Below are positions 2,696 to 29,082 of a stretch of DNA of 64,000 nucleotides, piece by piece. The translations under genes and the position numbers were made by a program. Origin of the DNA: the human T2T-CHM13v2.0 reference genome, Homo sapiens; NCBI GenBank assembly GCA_009914755.4, contig CP068257.2, positions 33,952,001 through 34,016,000 on the forward strand, in the 5' to 3' direction. Position 1 is the first letter of the stretch. Every line of letters begins with the position of its first letter. The notes under the pieces were generated by a model. That model was not told the origin of the DNA and did not search any database. It worked only from the letters and a program-made list of their open reading frames with translations.

Positions 2696-5536
2696 CCACA
2701 CAATTGTTGACAGTCTATCATAGAGAGTAAGGACATCAGCCAAAGGTGGTCTGCAGAGATCAGACAGGGGTCATCTCAAAAGGGAACAGCCTTAATTTCA
2801 CCTTAGATGTAGATGCGTTTGACAGAAAAACAGGAAAACAAAAGACCGTGAATGTCCCATTGGAAGACATACTAGGAAACTGTCATGGGGCAAAATTCAT
2901 ACGTCTTAGAGATAAAAGTTGGTAAAGCACAATTGAAGCTATTTCTTATTAAAGCACAACTGAAGTTATTTCTTCTTTTCTTCAGTAATAGAAAAGTTGG
3001 ACATTTTTCTTTAAAGAAATCAAATGCAATTATCCTGTACAGACTCAGTAACTCTAGCCAAGGATCAGGTTAGTCGCTTTCATGGAGCGGGAGTTTCGGC
3101 AGCTCTATTGTTCTAGCATTAGTAATGCATGAGACCTACCCCTGAACACTTCCAGTTAGGGAAGCTCTGCAGAGATCTTGCACTGTGCCACGGATGGCCT
3201 CGTGCTTTTGGCAATAAAGCTGGAAATGCAAAACACGTTTTGTGGTTCAAATAATCTCCAGGAGACAGTTTCCTGGAAGTTTTAAATCCTATTTCTCATA
3301 TCACCTCCATCTAAATTGATGATTTCTATGACCTTTTCATCTAATTACACTAGTATGTTGTAGCTATTTTTATTAAATGGTTCCATTACATAAGCCATTA
3401 TGTGCTAGCTCCTTCTTGTTGCTAACCTCATGAGCCCACCCCATTACTTCTCTTCACTTTCACATCAAGGATAGCATTCCTCAAGATGAAATTTGTTATG
3501 TTATCTAAGATCTATCTAAGATTTTCACAAATCACTTCACTAACACTTAAATATCAGAGACAGACACCCAGAATTCTACCAAAATCGTTGTGTACCCTCA
3601 CATGAAGTGGTGTATAGACTGGTTGACAAGACAAGGAAAAAATGGAAAGCACTAAAAAGCAGGAAGAAAAAACACAACACTCCAGAGAAGACATTAGGAA
3701 AATTTTTAAATGGGTAAAAACTGGGAAAAGGATGGAGAGTGGCTGGAGAATGCCCTCTCGTGCCAACAGTCATTAAAAGACACAGCAGAAGACGCCATCA
3801 TGGGCAGCACAAATCAGCCCCCATCCCGCTTTTGAATCATAGAGAAGTTTGCAATGTCAAACAATATCCTTCTAATATGTTATGAGAATTCTATCAGACC
3901 CTAGCTAAAGGTAGAAATGAACAGATATTTATGAGAACAGCATCAGGGAGAGAACGTGGAGAACTGCATCACTACGTAGTTGTACAAGTGAATTGTGTAA
4001 TACAATGATTAGAGTATTCCTTTCCGCTAGTTTCTACCCCACCATATTTATTGTATCTGAGTTCTAAACTATTTTTATTTTATTCCCTCCTGTCCAATAC
4101 TTGGCATTCACCTAAGCAGTCAGGAACATCTGCTGTATTTGTGACAACTATTCAGAAGGTATAAAACAAAGTTATATGCAGCATGTAGCAGTGACATTTG
4201 ATTGCAAGGGAGAGAATCCAACTAGAAATGTTGACTCACTGTGTTACCAAGCATCGTGAAAAGAGGCTGACGTTAGCCGGCGGTAGGCCAGTAATAATAT
4301 GCTTACACCATATTAATTGCAGATAAACCAAATTGCATTGCTAATTTCATTTGCATTTGCATTATCATTGTGTTTTAATTACTAGAGTTAGGCCACCAAA
4401 GACTAATATCCAAATCTGACAGCACCAATTCCCTGGATACATTTTGTGGTTGCTGAATGATTATTGTTCAACAGTTTGCTGCTTTTGACAAACGCAAAGC
4501 AACATAGGCTTCCCAGCCCTGAAAGAATGAAGGAATCAATGAAAGAATATCAGGCGTGGACTGATGCAGAGTTCCATTCTGGCTCCAGGCATACGGTCCT
4601 TGCTCAAAGATAAAACAGGCATGTTTCCCAGGACCTTCCCTGTTAATGTGTGCTGCTTGAAAAGAGGTCAGGGTCAACTAGGTATGGGAAATACCAGGCT
4701 AAACAAACATGGGCCTTATTGCAGACCTTCTTAGAGCCTTTAATATGTTATTGTACATTGTGACTCTCAGAGAGGGAATAGAGTTTGCAGTGTTCCCTAA
4801 CACTTACTTGACCATCTAGTCCTTTTTCTCACTGCAAATCTTCTGGATTTCCCAGGAATGCGCTTTTGAAAAAGCTGAATTTGCATAATATAACTGTAAC
4901 CAGAACCATGGGCATTCCATAAAAGTAAACATAAGTTATATGCTAGAAACATTCTACTGTACTTAACAGAAACTCACAGTCACCAGTCCACAATATCCAG
5001 ATAACCCTCCTGTCTACATTGTGAGTCTAATGTTCCCAGGATTTCTGCAAATTACTGGGGACTTTCATTCTCCTGGACACTTCTGGCCAAAAGCCCCAGG
5101 TTCCAGTGAGCTAGGAATCTATGGAACATCTCTTCTTCCAGTGCACACTATCTCCTTCCAACCCATGTTAAGCCAAGTATGCAATCCTCCTCCATTCCCA
5201 GACTTCCACGAAAACCGAGCAACTAAATAAACAAATCCTTTCATGAGGCTTGCTCAATTCTGCAGAGCATTTGGAGGTTATACTGCAGCAATGCAAGCAA
5301 CCTGAAATTGTGTATCAGACACACTTGTGCTCTCTTCTTTCAACGCTTTATTGAAATATAATTTATGTATCATAAAATTCACCTGTCTAAAGTAGACAAC
5401 TGAGTGGTTGTTAGTATATTTACAACGTTGAAACACTCCTGTTCTTAACTTCCTCTATAATTTCTGACTGATTATAGGCTCCAGTTTTCTTCCTCTCTTT
5501 CTCTGTATCTCTGTAACCCTCAAATTCAATTTCTTT

Positions 5537-5922
5537 TTTTTTTTAATTTCCATAGGTTTTTGGGGAACAGGTGGTGATTGGTTACCTGAGTAAGTTCTTT
5601 AGTGGTGATTTGTGAGATTTGGTGCACCCATCACCGAGTATATATATGCCTTTGCACCCTCAAAGGCATGTATATACACACACGTGTGTATACACACATA
5701 TACACGTATGTGTATATATATAATGACAATAAGGCAAACAATTGACACTATTTGAGAAGCAAGGTTAACAAAGACACGCACATGCACACACACACATATA
5801 TGCCTTTGAGAGTGCAAAGGCATAAGAATGACACAATGAATGGACTTGGGGGAAAGGGTGAGAGGGGAGTGAGGGATAACAGACTACACATTGACTATAT
5901 ACATATATCTATATGACTACTA
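5537..5922 (-). mobile_element. Old LINE-1 3'-end insertion with inverted 5' segment (twin-priming structure), bounded by 18 bp TSDs at 5519-5536 and 5923-5940
   Basis: Perfect 18 bp direct repeat 'ctcaaattcaatttcttt' on both sides. Poly-T lies at the left edge, followed by antisense L1 3'-terminal sequence ('ggtttttggggaacaggtggtg...ggtgcacccatcacc'). At 5800-5915 the adjacent upstream L1 segment appears in the opposite (sense) orientation (revcomp 'gtagtctgttatccctcac...tcattcttatgcctttgca'). Both pieces end in the same 'tatgcctttgca.cctcaaaggcat' motif at the inversion junction. Confidence 0.55.
5669..5800. repeat. TG/CA- and TA-rich microsatellite-like junction filler inside the L1 insertion, containing a 55 bp segment duplicated at 7243-7298
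   Basis: 'gtatatacacacacgtgtgtatacacacatatacacgtatgtgtatatatat' and 'cacatgcacacacacacatatat' flank 'aatgacaataaggcaaacaattgacactatttgagaagcaaggttaacaaagacacg'. That 55 bp segment recurs ~1.5 kb downstream with about 3 mismatches. Confidence 0.7.
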
Positions 5923-8900
5923 CTCAAATTCAATTTCTTTCTTTTGCAACCCTTTGGCTTTCTTGTCTGCAGCCAAACCCACGCCCTTTGAATCCCATCT
6001 CAACTCCGAACATCTTGCCCGGGTAACTTTCTAAATAAAGACAGGGCTCTTCCTGAAAGACATTCAGATGTCAGACATTAAAATTAAAAAAACAAACAAG
6101 ACAAAAACAAAAATAAGAATAAGGACTTCCTCGCACTGGCCTCTCCCCTATGGAAGCCTCTCCATGACTTCAACCAAATCACTTCTGGCTTCTGCGTTGG
6201 CAGTCCAATGCCCTGCAGGGAGTCCCTGATTGCTGCTGCCCTTGCTCATCCTTGATGCAGGTGGTCATTTCACCCCTCCCTCCCTTTGTGAGTGTCTTTA
6301 CATAGTGCTCCTGACCAGAATGCAGCAATATAGCTGCTTCTCACTGCCTGCCACTGCTCAGTGCATCCCTTCTACCTAGTTATGTCCTTCAGATCAAGTT
6401 TCCATAAGACCACAACAGAAAGCCTGGTTCAGACTCCACAGTGACATCATTCCGGCCTCTATTCCAACATGCAGGGAAGATGCCATCCATCATTCAAGCA
6501 TGAGTAACCAATTCCATAGAGGAGGCAAGTTCAGTGTTTCTGTTTGGTTAAAGCCACGGCCATCTCAACAGCCATGGCCCAAACATTTTTAAACAAAGTA
6601 GGGAAGGAGGAAAAGAAATCAGAGGAGAAATAGTAATGGGATTCAGGATGCTGCACAATGGGCTTTGGACAGGCCAGGTCAGATGTGGGGTGGAGGTAAG
6701 AGGAGAGCCTCAAACCTCTTCAACAGCCACAGAAGCTAAAGAAAGCACAGGAAGACCTATCCTTCAGCCCCCTCCCTAGGGATTTCCACTGGTGGTGAGT
6801 AAACAGCTCAATTACAAGATGTAATTATGAGTTCACTGTTCAGGAGACACCTAGAATTCTTTCCAGAAAGGCAACTCCGCCAAGATTTTACCCCCATGTT
6901 ATTACCACCATCATACTAAGCTATCCACATTTGCATTTGACCCACAGGCTCCCTGTATTCTGTGTGTGTTCAATTCCTGCATGTTCTGCAGAGGCCATCT
7001 AAAACTAGGTTTTATTCACTTCCCACCTTGCAGCATTTGGTTTAAGGAACTTCAGCTTTCTTGTAGTTTCATCACAAATCTTCGTGGTTTAGATCCTAGG
7101 AAAATCTCCCTTCAGCACTAAGATCAAATAGGTAGAAGCTGTCGACATGCAGTAAAGCGGCATTGAGAGGAAGCCAAGGTGGTGTGAAGGAGTTCCTGGT
7201 AAGTCCACAGTGTATGTACATCATGGCCTTACTTCTCAGAAAATGACAATAAGGCAAATAATTGACACTATTTGAGAAGCAAAGTTAACCAAGACACGGG
7301 AGTTGGAAAGGCGCCTGCACGGATACTGCTGGCCCCCCACAATAATTCCATATTTGACGGGCACACGGCAGTCCAGAAAACAAGCACATTTTCTTCTTTG
7401 CAGCTGGGTGGCTGATTTGCAAATGGGCCTTTATATCTCCAAATAATGAAATAAACATGTGTTTGGATTTTAAGGTGATGCCATACTGTTATAAAACATT
7501 CTAAGTGCTTGACTCTCAATTTCTGAGCTTATCTTGGAGCAGATGGTCCCATAGAATGTGAAGGGAAGAAATGTATAAAACTTACAAGTCATGCCCCAAA
7601 AGGGGAGCCCATGTTCTTCTCCCTTGCTCCATGTTCTCCCTTGCTCCTTCACACTCCCCTTCTTGTTGACTAGAAAGCAGCTTGGCCATGAGCCACTGTG
7701 GACCACGCAAGTGTGACCAACATGCTAGGATGATGGACAAACAAGACAGAAGGATCTTGGGCTCCACTGACTTCACTGAGCAAATCTGCCATACCAGCTT
7801 GACCTTTTGCACTTCTATCTGGTTTGGGAGACTGTTACACTGGTCACAAGGGCAAACCTATATTCTTAGCAATATGTGAACTCTGGATCAAACTATTTCA
7901 GGGGGTATCTGTACAGACATGGATGTCTGAGCATACACACCAGCACTAAAAGTATATCAAAGTCCAAACTGACTCTATGTCTCAACATTTGGGCAACACA
8001 CTTTTGAAATCCTGATTGGTTTGGTACCTTAGTAAAAACAGAGTGAGAAATTGACTGTCTTTCTCTCAATGTGGGGACAGGCCAATGTCTGCCCTGAGCT
8101 CTGCCAGCCATTTCACAAAGATACACCTCAGTCATAAAAACATATGTGATTATATGTATCCTAGAAAACAATGTTCAGTAATAAAGTGGCATAAAGGAGC
8201 ATATGTTTTTTAGGGATTTAGAAGGAATTTCATAATAATGCTTATATAAAATAGTGAAGCAAATTTAGAGAAAACAGCACCTTTGCAAATGTTTCCACCA
8301 CTGGCACACTGACCATTGACAAGATTCAAAAATGTGTTAGATTCAGACTGGACAAACATTGAAGTTAATTTAAAAGCATTTTTTGTTTTTGGTATTTCAA
8401 AACAGTGAGCTGTTTTAAAAAAAGTCTTTAAAAAAGAACCCTATTACATCGACAATTTAATAAGCTCATTCGTTTACAACTGGTTTTTTTTTTAATCCCC
8501 AATGTGTTTTTTTTAAGTGATATCTCATTTATTTTAAGCCTGGAAGAGAGTTTTCTCTGCATTTGAGCAGTCCAGGATGGAGCTACTAAAAGAAAGGTCT
8601 GTGAACAGTGAGATCCAGGAACTATTTGTAACCAGTCTGCATCAATATAAGCACAGACACTGGAAGTTCAGTGCTTAGAAAGTTTTACAGCAATATAATA
8701 TCACCATGACATCCAAATGCATGACTGACTTTCTAATCATTAGTTTTCATCGTATTTTACCAAAGCATCAGTTCTCAACAGATTTGAATTTTTTTTAAAT
8801 GGCCCTTCACCAAGATAGCAATGGTCTAGTAACCAACTTGCAGATATAAAGACCCATTTACAAATTTGCCTGCAGCTTTCTATGCCTCCAATCACACACA

Positions 8901-20023: not shown

Positions 20024-20410
20024 TATATGCACTTTTTTAAGTTTGCATTCCCTGAAAATTCAGACACATTGCTTCTTTATATCACCTTCTATCTAATTCT
20101 TCTTTTAAGAAAATCTTTGTTCAACTAAAATGTAGGGTCTCCTGGAGATGTTAGAGGGCAGAAAAATATCTGAGTACTTTCAAAAGTACAGTAAAGTTTC
20201 ATTAGAAAACCTAAAACATCGTATGCATTCTTTTTATGAAAGGCAATATCGATGCTGATGTTCAAGTTTCTGTCTTGATATCAACACAAAAGTCTTGGAC
20301 TCATAGCTGGCAGAATAAATCAGACTGGTAAATGTGTTTTATTTAGCATACGCAGCCTTATTTTTTTCAGTGGATTTTTGACTGCCACCCTTAAAAACCT
20401 GATGGCCTGG

Positions 20411-20818
<408 letters not shown>

Positions 20819-25076: not shown

Positions 25077-25568
<492 letters not shown>

Positions 25569-26015: not shown

Positions 26016-26459
26016 ATTCTCTTTGTAACAATTGTGAATGGAAGTTCATTCATGATTTTGGCTCTCTGCTTGTCTATTGTTGGTAGAAAATGTGGTACAT
26101 ACATACCACGGAATACTATGCAGCCATGAAAAGGAACAAGATCATGTCCCATGGAACTGAAAGCCATCATCCTCAGCAAACTAACACAGGAACAGAAAAC
26201 CGAACACCGCGTTTTCTCACTCATAAGTGGGAGCTGAACAATGAGAACACAGGGAGGGAAACAACACACACTGGGGCCTGTTGGTGGGTGGGAGGAGAGA
26301 AAGCATCAGGATAAATAGCTAATGCATGCCGGGCTTAATACCTAGGTGATGGGTTGATAAGAGCAGCAAACCACCATGGCACACGTTTACCTATGTAACA
26401 AACCTGCACGTTTGCACATGTATCCCAGAACCTAAAAGAAAATAAAATTTAAAAAAAAG
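26016..26459 (+). mobile_element. LINE-1 fragment: ORF2-internal piece joined by an internal deletion to the 3' end, with A-rich tail
   Basis: 'ttctctttgtaacaattgtgaatggaagttcattcatgattttggctctctgcttgtctattgttggtag' (L1 ORF2) is followed directly by 'aaaatgtggtacatacataccacggaatactatgcagccatgaaaaggaacaagatcatgtcccatgg...cccagaacctaaaagaaaataaaatttaaaaaaaag'. Confidence 0.85.
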
Positions 26460-28760
26460 AAATTGACTTTTGTAGAAGAGAAGAGTTCCCAGGATATTTG
26501 GAATATCATGCATTCCAGACTCTGAAAGGAATTATAAGTTCCAGTTTCAACCAAAATTTTTTCCCTCAATAGTTAATTTCAAAAAAAGAAAAAGGTAAGA
26601 TGTGTATGCCATTCTCATGAGAAGAAAACAAGACCTAAAACAAACAAACAAAAAAACCAGTCTAGGCCCTAAACCTTATATGAAGATAAAGAAAGGTCAT
26701 CCTCAATTTCAATTTACTTTATATATTCTTTGAGAGGTAACCGTGTCTTATCTCCCCCCAAAATTCCTTTTAAAAGGAAATTTCCAAAGATGCTCTATTC
26801 TGTGAATAAAGCATTGTGCCACAGCCGAGAGGATCCAGCAATGAACATGAGATTGCCCTTGATTCATAAGGTCTACAAGCTAGTAAGGATAGAGAACACT
26901 TTAAAATAAAAAAAAATAGTTTTTGGTATATTTATATTGTATATTTGGTATAATTGAGTTTTCTACATTCTCATATATGTATTTCATATTTTGAAGAATA
27001 TGCAGAAAATAATCAAGCTTCCAAATAAACATTTTTTTTTAAGAACTGCACAAGTGAGAATTTAGGAGAATAGAAGATCAGAGGGCTGCACGGGCTAAAC
27101 TAGACAATGAGCCCATGCAAGTAAGTTAAGAGGAGAAGCGGGTAAGTATGCACCTGCTTTGTCTAGGAGACCAGCAAGCATTTAGTAATAGTCTTTTCAA
27201 AACAACAGCTCCTTATATTGTCAAATCTCAAGAAGTAATATTTATGGTTAAAAAAATCTCAGACCCAACAGAAAATCCATGAGGGAGATGGTTTTGGAAA
27301 CGCAGAATTTTCAGCTATGATATCCTTTTATAAACAAGCAGATACTTTCCCCAAATATAATTCAATGCCTCAGTCTACCTCCTGCTGAAACCACTAACAC
27401 CACCACTAAAGCTCGACTATATGGGAAAATTTAGGGGTCACTTTCAAAATATGTCCTAGCATAAAGGCAATTAAAAAATGTAAAGCACCAAAGATGCAAG
27501 AGAGACATAAATGAATAAAATATCTGGCACGAAAGTTTTCAAAAGCTTGGGAATCTGATTCAAAAAAAAATAAAATCAGCCAAGCAGTGTTAGTAAGTTA
27601 GCCAATCAGGTTTCAAGAAGGCAGAAAGACAAAATCAACATCACCAGCATTTGACACCGCTACTGGGGGAAAAAAGGGGGATGGAGTTCGTTTATGGCCT
27701 TTTTAAAAATGCCATTACTTGGACAAGAGTCATAACAGAGAAGCACTGCTTATTTCAGTTCTGTGAACTGTAAATATCAGAGCCAACACCCAGAAAAAGT
27801 TCACCATTAGCCAATTGGTTTTGCCTGGCCAATTGGAGATGGTAATAGGCCTGCTATGGATGACATTCTTTCTGATATAAGTTGTTTCTTGCTTTTTCTC
27901 CCTCTCTACTGTATGTCTTTAAATTCTTTATAACATTCCTTTCTCACTACTATTCAATTAGCTTTCAGATGAGTGAGGAGCACCTACACACCAAGATTGC
28001 CACTGTACCAAGTATCATCACAAGAGTTCACAACCAGCTGCTTAAAAGTAATTGGCATCATAATGTGCAGAAAAAAATACTTTTCTAATGGTTGCCTGGA
28101 AGATTTATATCACTAAAATGTAATTAAAAAGTAGATTTAGAAATATACTCAGCAACCAAAAAGATTAAATATTAATGTGAAGTGTAATTAATAAATTATA
28201 CATCTCTTGATTACTAATGGCTTATTGACTGTAAAAGCATAACATTATGGAATATTAGGGCAAACAAAGGCTTTTGGGGAATATTGTTCAGCTTCAAGGA
28301 TGCTGCTGCTGCTGCTCTTGAATTTCCAGAAGAAATCCTGATTTTTGCAGAGAAAATAAAAATTTGCCTAATTATTTCCATTAACATTCTTTACTCATTC
28401 TATATGTCACTGAGTGTGTCGTTCTTTACAAAATGAAAACTTGGTAGTTTCCTGAATCCTTTTTTATTGCACTAAGACAATTTCTGCTGCATGTTCTACT
28501 GGCTATCCGGTTGAAATTAAGTTTTACATTTAAAAGTAGTTCTGAACCTCTTATACAAAAATAAGGTGTCTAATACCATTGGCAGTGACATCAGTACAGA
28601 TAAATATCTGGAATGAGGTGGGTGTGCGATGGGTAATGCCTGCAGGGCAATGCAGTCTGCAGAATAAGACAAAACCATGGATAGAGAGAGGGGGCTATCC
28701 AGACATCAATAAACATATGTAAACTGCAATCACCTCACACTCTCTTGAAAAATTTTCAGG

Positions 28761-29082
<322 letters not shown>

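What the first reader, a model, noticed from the sequence alone, without database searches (positions are those of the whole stretch)
5519..5940. Twin-primed old L1 3'-end insertion whose inversion junction contains a (TG)n/(TA)n tract and 55 bp of 'filler' duplicated 1.5 kb downstream (7243-7298)
A perfect 18 bp TSD, a poly-T at the left edge and antisense L1 3'-terminal sequence are followed by the immediately upstream L1 segment in the opposite orientation. Both segments stop at the same 'tatgcctttgca.cctcaaaggcat' motif, which is itself a hairpin ('gcctttg...caaaggc'). Between them sits about 130 bp that is not L1: TG/TA microsatellite plus 'aatgacaataaggcaaacaattgacactatttgagaagcaaggttaaca aagacacg'. 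The same 55 bp recurs at 7243-7298 with about 3 mismatches. This looks like template switching or gap-filling from nearby DNA during insertion, or a later gene conversion, rather than a simple twin-priming junction.
Basis: partly seen in the sequence, partly recalled or inferred. Interest (0 to 1): 0.5.

Follow-up and report, generated by a model that had tools for sequence, protein, structure and literature searches.

The report
Twin-primed L1 with templated junction filler
This is an old, dead fragment of the L1 jumping gene that went in with its front part flipped, and the seam between the two parts was patched with a short hairpin copied twice and 57 bases copied from DNA 1.7 kb away; it is a tidy fossil of a repair pattern already described in tumour genomes, with no sign of a function.

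Summary
A perfect 18-bp target-site duplication (5519-5536 = 5923-5940) brackets 386 bp. I built an L1 3'-end consensus from 76 primate L1 copies found as contaminants in metagenome contigs. Against it, 5644-5539 is L1 position 292 to the end plus tail, antisense. 5804-5902 is L1 188-296, sense. This is the textbook twin-priming arrangement.

The "hairpin motif" is L1 191-208, which starts 5 nt after the ORF2 stop, plus a 7-8 nt non-L1 arm that complements it. It occurs twice in inverted orientation (5645-5673 and 5796-5824, 27/29). The left copy is therefore an extra, non-contiguous L1 piece, not the end of the 3' segment.

Between the copies lie TA/CA/TG low-complexity DNA and a 57-nt block (5722-5778). 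This block matches 7242-7298 at 54/57 and nothing else I could search.

Best reading: the inversion junction was resolved by serial template switches, including a templated insertion from nearby DNA. Both features are already described for somatic L1 insertions. I could not separate "at insertion" from "later repair" without orthologous loci. This is an ordinary member of a known kind, of low to moderate interest.

The parts
5519..5536 (+). Left target-site duplication, CTCAAATTCAATTTCTTT
   Evidence: Exact 18/18 repeat of 5923-5940. Chance expectation 0.03.
5537..5544 (-). Remnant of the L1 poly(A) tail, read as T8 on the + strand. The T run continues into the TSD.
   Evidence: Read directly from the sequence. 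Aligned to the consensus A-tail.
5545..5644 (-). Non-inverted 3' piece of L1: consensus 292 to the 3' end, antisense on the + strand. This is the product of the first cDNA, primed from the T-rich nick.
   Evidence: Alignment to the empirical consensus gives 94 matches, 4 mismatches and 3 one-base gaps.
5645..5673 (-). Left hairpin copy. 5645-5662 is L1 208-191 antisense (17/18). 5663-5669 (AAGGCAT) is a non-L1 arm complementary to 5646-5652. The stem is 5645-5654/5661-5670 and the loop is CACCCT.
   Evidence: Inverted repeat I1, 27/29, with 5796-5824. Pattern search. Fold -8.2 kcal/mol, z = -4.3. Carries G at L1 196 and T at L1 190; G at 196 occurs in 2 and the T-bearing CTTTG in 0 of the 121 upstream 10-mers tabulated (roughly 100 are real L1 copies, the rest bacterial chance matches).
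5670..5721 (.). Low-complexity tract MS1. TA/CA/TG runs switch between CA and TG on the same strand, so the tract is palindromic.
   Evidence: I2, I6, I7. Its fold is not better than dinucleotide shuffles, z = -1.5. It matches only the low-complexity region at 61.5-61.9 kb.
5722..5778 (+). 57-nt filler, a direct copy of 7242-7298 with 3 mismatches
   Evidence: blastn 94.7% over 57 nt, E = 5e-16. Shared exact 23-mer with chance expectation 0.00.
5779..5798 (.). Low-complexity tract MS2 (CACATGCACACACACACATA). The filler's last bases, ACACG, run into it, giving ACAC microhomology.
   Evidence: Read directly from the sequence.
5796..5824 (+). Right hairpin copy. 5799-5806 (TATGCCTT) is a non-L1 arm complementary to L1 201-208. 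The L1-templated part starts at 5807 (L1 191), or possibly 5804 (L1 188). The stem is 5799-5808/5815-5824 and the loop is AGAGTG. It is contiguous with the inverted L1 piece.
   Evidence: Fold -9.1 kcal/mol, z = -5.7.
5804..5902 (+). Inverted 5' piece of L1: consensus 188-296, sense on the + strand. This is the product of the second, internally primed cDNA.
   Evidence: Alignment gives 86 matches, 13 mismatches and 2 gaps.
5903..5922 (.). 20 nt of TA-rich sequence (ATATATCTATATGACTACTA) between the last secure L1 base (296) and the right TSD. Origin uncertain: possibly an expansion of L1's own GTGTATACTG, possibly extra nucleotides.
   Evidence: Not aligned by the local alignment. The ending ACTA|CTC resembles L1 ACTG|CTC (297-301), which would give a 3-nt CTC microhomology with the TSD. 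This is inference.
5923..5940 (+). Right target-site duplication
7242..7298 (+). Presumed source of the 57-nt filler. It lies outside the TSD-bounded insert, 1.3 kb right of the right TSD, and has no flanking microsatellite or repeat.
   Evidence: No other homolog in the window or in 405 kb of fetched loci. No Rfam match. No RNA structure signal, z = -0.58.

Best explanation
A single L1 retrotransposition event inserted only 3'-UTR sequence, the last ~205 nt of an older primate L1 with the 'CCTATGGAAAT' type of 3' end. It went in by twin priming.

Shown:
- One TSD pair encloses a poly(A)-tailed 3' piece (L1 292 to the end).
- It also encloses an oppositely oriented, nearly contiguous 5' piece (L1 188/191-296).

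Inferred:
- cDNA 1 grew from the + strand T-rich nick.
- cDNA 2 grew from the other staggered end. It primed near L1 ~297-301, possibly through CTC microhomology, and ran to L1 ~191, 5 nt past the ORF2 stop.
- At L1 ~191 the natural quasi-palindrome CTATG...CAAAG let the cDNA 3' end snap back on itself and add 7-9 nt. This made a perfect 10-bp hairpin.
- The two cDNA 3' ends were then joined by several short template switches rather than by simple microhomology annealing. These produced a second, inverted copy of the hairpin block, palindromic TA/CA/TG tracts, and 57 nt copied from unique DNA 1.7 kb downstream on the same chromosome arm. The switch points have TATA and ACAC microhomologies.

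The copying enzyme could be ORF2p reverse transcriptase or a repair polymerase working in an SDSA-like or polymerase-theta-like end-joining reaction. The sequence does not say which. The element has no evident function.
For: Twin priming:
- The TSD is perfect and non-random.
- The tail abuts the left TSD.
- Orientation and L1 coordinates come from alignment to a 76-copy empirical consensus.
- The inverted piece's L1-3'-most end lies next to the right TSD, as the model requires.

Hairpin block duplicated rather than independently derived:
- 27/29 identity in inverted orientation, with chance expectation 0.00.
- Both copies share a non-L1 arm and two states that are rare among L1 copies (T at 190, G at 196). 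CTTTGAG occurs in 0 of the 121 pattern matches tabulated.

Filler copied from nearby:
- 54/57 identity, in direct orientation, and the only match in the window.
- One copy lies inside a TSD-bounded insert and the other in unique flank, so 7242-7298 is the parsimonious source.

Not a common repeat or known RNA:
- A filler 23-mer gave 0 hits in viral and metagenome contigs. An L1 18-mer gave at least 120 hits in the same metagenome collection.
- Rfam found nothing.

Age:
- The three duplicated pairs have similar divergence: TSD 0/18 to 1/23, hairpin 2/29, filler 3/57. This is compatible with one event.

Precedent:
- Long-read tumour data describe 'twin priming & 3' switching', where a non-inverted L1 piece sits at the inversion breakpoint.
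- The same data report 22 'templated insertions' of non-L1 DNA under 250 bp from near the insertion site, explained as SDSA-like (bioRxiv 10.1101/2024.08.27.596794).
- Experimental L1 expression also yields templated insertions and template switches in twin-primed inserts (PMC11702581).
Against: - Timing is not established. With 3/57, 2/29 and 0-1/23 differences, the ages of the filler, the hairpin duplicate and the TSD cannot be separated from a somewhat later event.
- The filler does not abut L1 sequence. It sits inside microsatellite-like DNA, which is a plausible site for a later break.
- The inverted piece is more diverged from the consensus than the 3' piece (13/99 against 4/98 mismatches). 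This is mildly unexpected for one event. It may reflect alignment choices in the G-rich region, the mixed consensus, or lower-fidelity synthesis.
- The nick site read from the 18-bp TSD is TCTTT/C, not the canonical TTTT/A. It becomes CTTTT/G if the TSD is 23 bp.
- 20 nt next to the right TSD are unexplained.
- The order of switches, and which cDNA carried them, is inferred. Two variants fit equally well: both cDNAs ran off the same RNA 5' end, or one tail folded back and copied the hairpin.
Confidence: 0.6

Rival explanations
1. The L1 went in by ordinary twin priming with a simple junction. Later, the hairpin or TA/CA microsatellite at the junction broke or stalled replication. The break was repaired with a templated insertion of 57 nt from 1.7 kb away, plus an inverted copy of the hairpin. 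The filler is then a post-insertion repair scar and not part of retrotransposition.
For: - The filler is embedded in low-complexity, palindromic DNA rather than directly joined to L1.
- The junction folds into a strong long-range stem, z = -7.85, and such structures are fragile (general knowledge).
- The divergence of the duplicated pairs is too imprecise to exclude a younger age.
Against: - The filler pair (5.3%) is no less diverged than the TSD pair (0-4.3%) or the hairpin pair (6.9%), so there is no sign that it is younger.
- A twin-priming junction is by nature a place where two free 3' ends must be joined. Templated insertions at exactly this step are documented in fresh somatic insertions.
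- It needs a second independent event at the same 150 bp.
Confidence: 0.25
2. The 57 nt were reverse-transcribed from an RNA, a local nascent or stable transcript covering 7242-7298. The L1 reverse transcriptase switched templates, making this an L1/RNA chimera at an inversion junction.
For: - L1 RT template switching to other RNAs, and twin-primed chimeras, are well documented (PMC13174262; PMC11702581).
- Splice-like motifs flank the source: a donor-like CCTG|GTAAGT at 7198/7199, an AG at 7238-7239 just before the copied block, an acceptor-like TTTGCAG| at 7403/7404, and AATAAA at 7450-7455. The region might therefore be transcribed.
Against: - There is no evidence of transcription.
- There is no Rfam family and no structure signal at the source.
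- The right end of the copied block is not at a splice or RNA-end signal.
- The 1.7-kb proximity is what a DNA-templated, in-cis mechanism predicts. For RNA it would be a coincidence, unless the RNA was nascent.
Confidence: 0.1
3. The two 57-nt blocks are independent members of an unrecognised low-copy repeat. Alternatively, the structure is two separate L1 insertions, so that nothing was copied locally.
For: I could not search a primate genome. My test for repeat status has power only against families of roughly hundreds of copies or more.
Against: - 94.7% identity over exactly 57 nt with sharp edges, and no extension of homology on either side.
- One copy lies inside a TSD-bounded retrotransposon insert.
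- A single TSD pair encloses both L1 pieces, whose L1 coordinates abut at 292 and 296. Two independent insertions would not produce this.
Confidence: 0.05

Closest known systems
5'-inverted L1 insertions made by twin priming (Ostertag & Kazazian 2001; junction statistics in PMC2912911)
   Same: One TSD pair. The poly(A) tail lies at one end. An inverted 5' piece and a non-inverted 3' piece are nearly contiguous in L1, here with an overlap of about 5 nt. The priming end of the inverted piece lies next to the other TSD.
   Different: Typical inversion junctions are a direct join with 0 to a few bases of microhomology. Here 159 bp separate the two main pieces: 5645-5803, of which 18 nt are a second L1-derived fragment.
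'Twin priming & 3' switching' and 'templated insertions' in somatic L1 insertions from long-read tumour genomes (bioRxiv 10.1101/2024.08.27.596794), with the SDSA-like model of Gilbert et al. 2005 cited there
   Same: A non-inverted L1 fragment from further 5' in the RNA sits at the inversion breakpoint. A non-L1 genomic segment under 250 bp from close to the insertion site is copied into the insert, duplicating that segment.
   Different: - This is an old, fixed germline insertion, not a tumour event.
- Both features occur together.
- The extra L1 fragment duplicates the very end of the inverted piece, including its non-L1 snap-back arm, which suggests fold-back copying rather than a plain jump on the RNA.
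- The source is 1.3-1.7 kb away, and microsatellite-like tracts flank the filler.
L1 chimeric insertions with cellular RNAs such as U6, 5S, tRNA and mRNA (PMC13174262)
   Same: Non-L1 sequence arrives inside the same TSD-bounded insertion. Template switching and twin priming are the proposed routes.
   Different: The extra sequence here matches no known RNA family, is internal rather than at the 5' end of the insert, and has its only known homolog 1.7 kb away in cis.
Templated insertions of polymerase-theta-mediated end joining (recalled from general knowledge, not tested here)
   Same: Short copies of nearby sequence lie at a repair junction, in both direct (57 nt) and reverse-complement snap-back (29 nt) orientation. 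They are bounded by 2-4 nt microhomologies.
   Different: The typical templated insertions I recall are shorter (under 30 nt) and drawn from closer flanks. No enzyme can be assigned from sequence.

Membership tests
5'-inverted (twin-primed) L1 insertion | A single target-site duplication of about 7-20 bp flanks the whole insert | tested here: met
   18/18 identical at 5519-5536 and 5923-5940. Chance expectation 0.03.
5'-inverted (twin-primed) L1 insertion | The L1 3' end with its poly(A) tail lies directly next to one TSD | tested here: met
   T8 (up to T11) at 5534-5544 is followed by the antisense L1 3' terminus GGAAAT.
5'-inverted (twin-primed) L1 insertion | Two L1 segments in opposite orientation whose L1 coordinates abut, with a small overlap or deletion | tested here: met
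   Consensus 292 to the end on the minus strand and consensus 188-296 on the plus strand.
5'-inverted (twin-primed) L1 insertion | The L1-3'-most end of the inverted segment lies next to the TSD opposite the tail, and its 5'-most end lies at the internal junction | tested here: met
   L1 296 is at 5902, near the right TSD. L1 188 is at 5804, facing the junction.
5'-inverted (twin-primed) L1 insertion | Microhomology between the target end and L1 at the internal priming site | tested here: inconclusive
   A possible CTC (L1 299-301 and the TSD start). However, 20 nt of TA-rich sequence (5903-5922) lie between the last secure L1 base and the TSD.
5'-inverted (twin-primed) L1 insertion | L1 endonuclease-type nick site (TTTT/A-like) at the tail side | tested here: inconclusive
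   The empty-site reconstruction gives TTTCTTT/CTTTTG. That is T-rich but followed by C. It reads CTTTT/G if the TSD is taken as 23 bp with one mismatch.
Templated insertion during L1 integration (SDSA-like) | A non-L1 segment inside the TSD-bounded insert is a copy of genomic DNA near the insertion site | tested here: met
   5722-5778 matches 7242-7298 at 54/57 in direct orientation, 1.3 kb beyond the right TSD.
Templated insertion during L1 integration (SDSA-like) | The copied segment arrived in the same event as the L1 | not testable with these tools
   This needs orthologous loci from other primates. The divergence of the duplicated pairs (0-1/23, 2/29, 3/57) is compatible with one event but not decisive.
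Templated insertion during L1 integration (SDSA-like) | The template is unique DNA and not a dispersed repeat | tested here: inconclusive
   No other copy in the window or in 405 kb of fetched loci. The 23-mer gave 0 hits in viral and metagenome contigs, where an L1 18-mer gave at least 120. No primate genome could be searched.
L1/cellular-RNA chimera | The extra segment matches a known RNA such as snRNA, rRNA, tRNA or mRNA, with RNA-like ends | tested here: not met
   No Rfam match at gathering score, and no hit overlapping 7242-7298 at E up to 10; the sub-gathering hits that reach into 5722-5778 are hairpin/microsatellite-driven miRNA models. No structure signal at the source. No protein homolog for the overlapping ORF. 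mRNA or lncRNA status is untestable here.

The most novel reading that the evidence does not exclude
The start of the L1 3' UTR (L1 188-208, just past the ORF2 stop) is a quasi-palindrome that makes the reverse transcriptase snap back and terminate. At this locus both cDNAs ended there. The self-complementary ends then recruited a nearby template, possibly a nascent local transcript, to bridge the gap. If this recurs, the site would be a built-in hotspot for complex L1 junctions, and RNA-templated or cis-DNA-templated patching could be read from fossils genome-wide.
Probability: 0.1. Interest if true: 0.45.

Novelty: new member of a known kind. Interest (0 to 1): 0.25.

Why it matters
It adds little on its own. 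It is a clean, fully resolved germline fossil showing that three things reported from tumour and cell-culture L1 insertions also occurred in the primate germline and became fixed. These are complex twin-priming junctions, an extra L1 fragment at the breakpoint, and a templated copy of nearby DNA. A systematic screen of old 5'-inverted L1s for local templated fillers and snap-back hairpins could measure how often L1 integration is finished by template-switching repair. It could also show whether particular L1 positions favour it. The locus itself shows no sign of function.

Tried and rejected
- Orthologous loci through spurious ORFs. Exact look-ups of the 83-aa (7268-7519, minus) and 74-aa (5599-5823, minus) ORFs found nothing. 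A homology search with the 83-aa ORF found nothing. No protein-coding exon was evident in the window, so there was no comparative route.\n- Small-RNA origin of the filler. Rfam at gathering score over the whole window gave nothing. At E up to 10, the only hits were sub-threshold matches to miRNA models, caused by the TA/TG palindromes. The source region has no structure signal. Rejected.\n- Filler as a common repeat. There were 0 hits for its 23-mer in viral and metagenome contigs. There was no other copy in the window or the fetched loci, and no literature hit for the sequence. Rejected for high-copy families only.\n- Viral contigs as a source of L1 copies gave 0 hits.\n- Left hairpin as a simple continuation of antisense L1 beyond position 292. 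Rejected, because it matches L1 208-191 at 17/18 and the right copy at 27/29.\n- Other templated pieces in MS1, MS2 and the 20-nt right tract. Only low-complexity matches to 61.5-61.9 kb were found.\n- The MS1 hairpin as a meaningful structure. It is not better than dinucleotide shuffles.\n- One script timed out on a fuzzy regex and was redone with blastn.

Full report
**What is in the sequence.**
The 18-mer CTCAAATTCAATTTCTTT occurs exactly twice in the 64-kb window, at 5519-5536 and 5923-5940. Dinucleotide-preserving shuffles give 0.03 expected matches even with two mismatches allowed. With the next T-rich bases the repeat is 22/23. Directly right of the left copy is a T run (5534-5544, eight T's beyond the repeat).

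The 57-nt block 5722-5778 recurs at 7242-7298 with three mismatches, in direct orientation. It is the only other copy in the window (blastn E = 5e-16; exact shared 23-mer). The motif TATGCCTTTGCACYCTCAAAGGCAT occurs at 5645-5669 on the plus strand and at 5800-5824 on the minus strand. The only corrections needed are small shifts in length and coordinates.

**Getting an L1 reference.**
No repeat library was available, so I built one.
- A 19-mer from the putative L1 3' end found two short primate L1-bearing contigs in bacterial genome assemblies.
- An 18-mer (GCAAAGGCATAAGAATGA) found at least 120 stretches in metagenome contigs. Most are primate L1 3' ends and about 15 are bacterial chance matches.
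- I aligned 76 copies with enough flank and made a majority consensus.
- In this consensus the ORF2 frame ends ...ATA AGT GGG AGC TAA at positions 184-186, and the element ends GGAAAT(A)n at about 393.
- The window is primate: it holds several Alus and an L1PA-type 3' end elsewhere.

**Anatomy.**
| Window | Strand | Content |
|---|---|---|
| 5644-5539 | minus | consensus 292-400: L1 3' end plus tail; 94 matches, 4 mismatches, 3 one-base gaps |
| 5804-5902 | plus | consensus 188-296; 86 matches, 13 mismatches, 2 gaps |

On the L1-sense (minus) strand the insert reads as follows:
1. TSD
2. Inverted L1 296 back to 188
3. The junction
4. L1 292 to the end
5. The A-tail
6. TSD

This is the arrangement expected from twin priming. 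One TSD pair encloses both pieces. The tail lies at one TSD. The priming end of the inverted piece lies at the other TSD. The two pieces abut in L1 coordinates with about 5 nt of overlap. Two independent insertions would not share one TSD pair or abut in L1 coordinates.

The whole insert is 3'-UTR sequence. Twenty TA-rich bases (5903-5922) between L1 296 and the right TSD remain unassigned. They may be an expansion of L1's own GTGTATACTG, and they end ACTA|CTC where L1 has ACTG|CTC.

**The hairpin motif.**
The right copy is contiguous with the inverted piece.
- From 5807 (possibly 5804) it is L1 191(188)-208.
- The eight bases before that (5799-5806, TATGCCTT) are not L1. They are the reverse complement of L1 201-208.
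- Together they make a perfect 10-bp stem with a 6-nt loop (-9.1 kcal/mol, z = -5.7).
- The L1 consensus here is only a quasi-palindrome (CTATG...CAAAG).
- None of the 121 pattern matches tabulated has CTTTG, and only two have G at position 196.

The simplest origin is a snap-back. The antisense cDNA reached about L1 191, its 3' CA paired with TG a few bases back, and 7-9 nt were copied from the cDNA itself. This step is inferred.

The left copy (5645-5673) is the same 29-nt block in inverted orientation (27/29). It includes the non-L1 arm and the G at 196. It is therefore a copy of the right block or of the same template, and not an independent L1 fragment. It is joined to L1 292 through TATATA, skipping L1 209-291.

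The 3' piece stops at L1 292, and an extra 18-nt L1 fragment plus snap-back arm has been added to it.

**Between the hairpins.**
- MS1 (5670-5721) and MS2 (5779-5798) are TA/CA/TG tracts.
- MS1 switches between CA and TG runs on one strand and is therefore palindromic. Its fold is no better than shuffles (z = -1.5).
- These tracts match only the long compound microsatellite at 61.5-61.9 kb.
- The filler's right end (ACACG) runs into the CA tract, giving ACAC microhomology. Its left end has at most 1 nt of microhomology.
- The whole junction folds through pairing of the two hairpin blocks (z = -7.85).

**What the filler is.**
- It has no Rfam match at gathering score. At E up to 10, sub-threshold matches to miRNA models are driven by the TA/TG palindromes, one hairpin copy or the long-range pairing of the two hairpin copies; a few span the filler but none is specific to it.
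- The source region shows no RNA structure signal (z = -0.58).
- Nothing else in the window or in 405 kb of fetched, mostly primate, loci resembles 7100-7400.
- A 23-mer shared by both copies gave no hit in viral or metagenome contigs. An L1 18-mer gave at least 120 hits in the same metagenome collection. This argues against a high-copy repeat. It has little power against families of fewer than a few hundred copies.
- One copy lies inside a TSD-bounded insert and the other in ordinary flank without microsatellites, so 7242-7298 is the parsimonious source.
- Neither copy has flanking homology, which makes classical gene conversion unlikely.

**Mechanism.**
Best reading (confidence about 0.6): one twin-primed insertion whose two cDNA ends were joined by serial, microhomology-primed template switches.

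Geometry fits two routes, and both give the observed direct repeat.
- cDNA 2 is tethered to the right chromosome arm, which carries the source 1.3 kb away. It could copy the plus strand of that arm in an SDSA-like invasion.
- cDNA 1 could copy the resected minus strand of the right arm.

The inverted hairpin duplicate is what a fold-back copy on the same strand gives. An alternative fits equally well: both cDNAs ran to the same 5' end of the RNA and snapped back identically. That is the published '3' switching' variant.

Whether ORF2p or a repair polymerase did the copying cannot be read from the sequence.

**Timing.**
The duplicated pairs differ by 0/18 to 1/23 (TSD), 2/29 (hairpin) and 3/57 (filler). 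These values are mutually compatible and give no sign that the filler is younger. The numbers are too small to exclude a later repair event at a fragile palindromic microsatellite (rival, about 0.25). An RNA template is possible but unsupported (about 0.1). Splice-like motifs lie around the source.

One mild oddity is that the inverted piece is more diverged than the 3' piece (13/99 against 4/98). Part of this depends on how the G-rich region is aligned.

**Comparison with what is known.**
- Twin priming is the standard explanation for 5'-inverted L1s, and microhomology is usual at their junctions (PMC2912911).
- The same study reports 22 'templated insertions' of non-L1 DNA under 250 bp copied from near the insertion site. 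These are attributed to an SDSA-like process first proposed by Gilbert et al. 2005 (bioRxiv 10.1101/2024.08.27.596794).
- Experimental L1 expression also yields templated insertions and template switches within twin-primed inserts (PMC11702581).
- L1 chimeras with cellular RNAs are catalogued (PMC13174262), but this filler matches no known RNA.

This locus is a germline, fixed example that combines features already described.

**Verdict.**
This is a new member of a known kind with no evident function. Interest is 0.25. The decisive test is the orthologous locus in other primates, together with a genome-wide search for the 57-mer. Neither could be run here.

Noticed in passing
window 7410-7547 and 8631-8870: A diverged inverted repeat of two blocks: 7410-7442 against 8870-8838 at 85%, and 7455-7547 against 8723-8631 at 73%. 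It starts about 110 bp right of the filler source. It could be the arms of an old DNA transposon or an ancient inverted duplication. It does not include the 57-nt block.
   Followed up: partly
window 7190-7460: Splice- and polyadenylation-like motifs surround the filler source. They are CCTG|GTAAGT at 7198/7199, a pyrimidine tract plus AG at 7238-7239, TTTCTTCTTTGCAG| ending at 7403, and AATAAA at 7450-7455. The 80 bp after the source also hold five CpGs in a CpG-poor window. This may be a non-coding transcript. These are motif matches only.
   Followed up: no
window 61500-61880: A roughly 380-bp compound TA/TG/CA microsatellite. It is the only part of the window that resembles the low-complexity tracts at the L1 junction, through low-complexity similarity and not shared origin.
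   Followed up: partly
window 20409-20689; also 933-1207, 2391-2670, 25237-25500, 28772-29030: Alu elements. The others are 75-88% identical. They confirm a primate origin for the window.
   Followed up: no
window ~26179-26460: The 3' end of a younger L1PA-type element, in sense orientation, with the ORF2 end, the 3' UTR and an A-rich tail. It is a different 3'-UTR type from the element studied.
   Followed up: no
window 5804-5902: The inverted L1 piece is about three times more diverged from the consensus than the 3' piece. By hand inspection of the alignment (not counted by a tool), about 5 of its 13 mismatches are G-to-A on the L1 sense strand, several in GG context. This could be chance or alignment choices, or it could be cDNA editing or low-fidelity synthesis of the second cDNA.
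   Followed up: partly
L001 (NRRR01000044.1, Chromatium weissei scaffold, 817 bp) and L007 (NZ_NRRF01000273.1, Thiocystis violacea scaffold, 561 bp): Short scaffolds in bacterial genome assemblies that are plainly primate L1 3' ends with poly(A) and flanking DNA. This is host or laboratory contamination in public assemblies. Many metagenome contigs (L010-L129) are the same.
   Followed up: partly
L014, upstream of its match to GCAAAGGCATAAGAATGA: This L1 copy is truncated at about L1 198 and is preceded by ...GCATTGCTTT, which makes TTTGCAAA palindromic with the L1 start. It may be another snap-back at the same L1 site. It is a single case and was not analysed.
   Followed up: no
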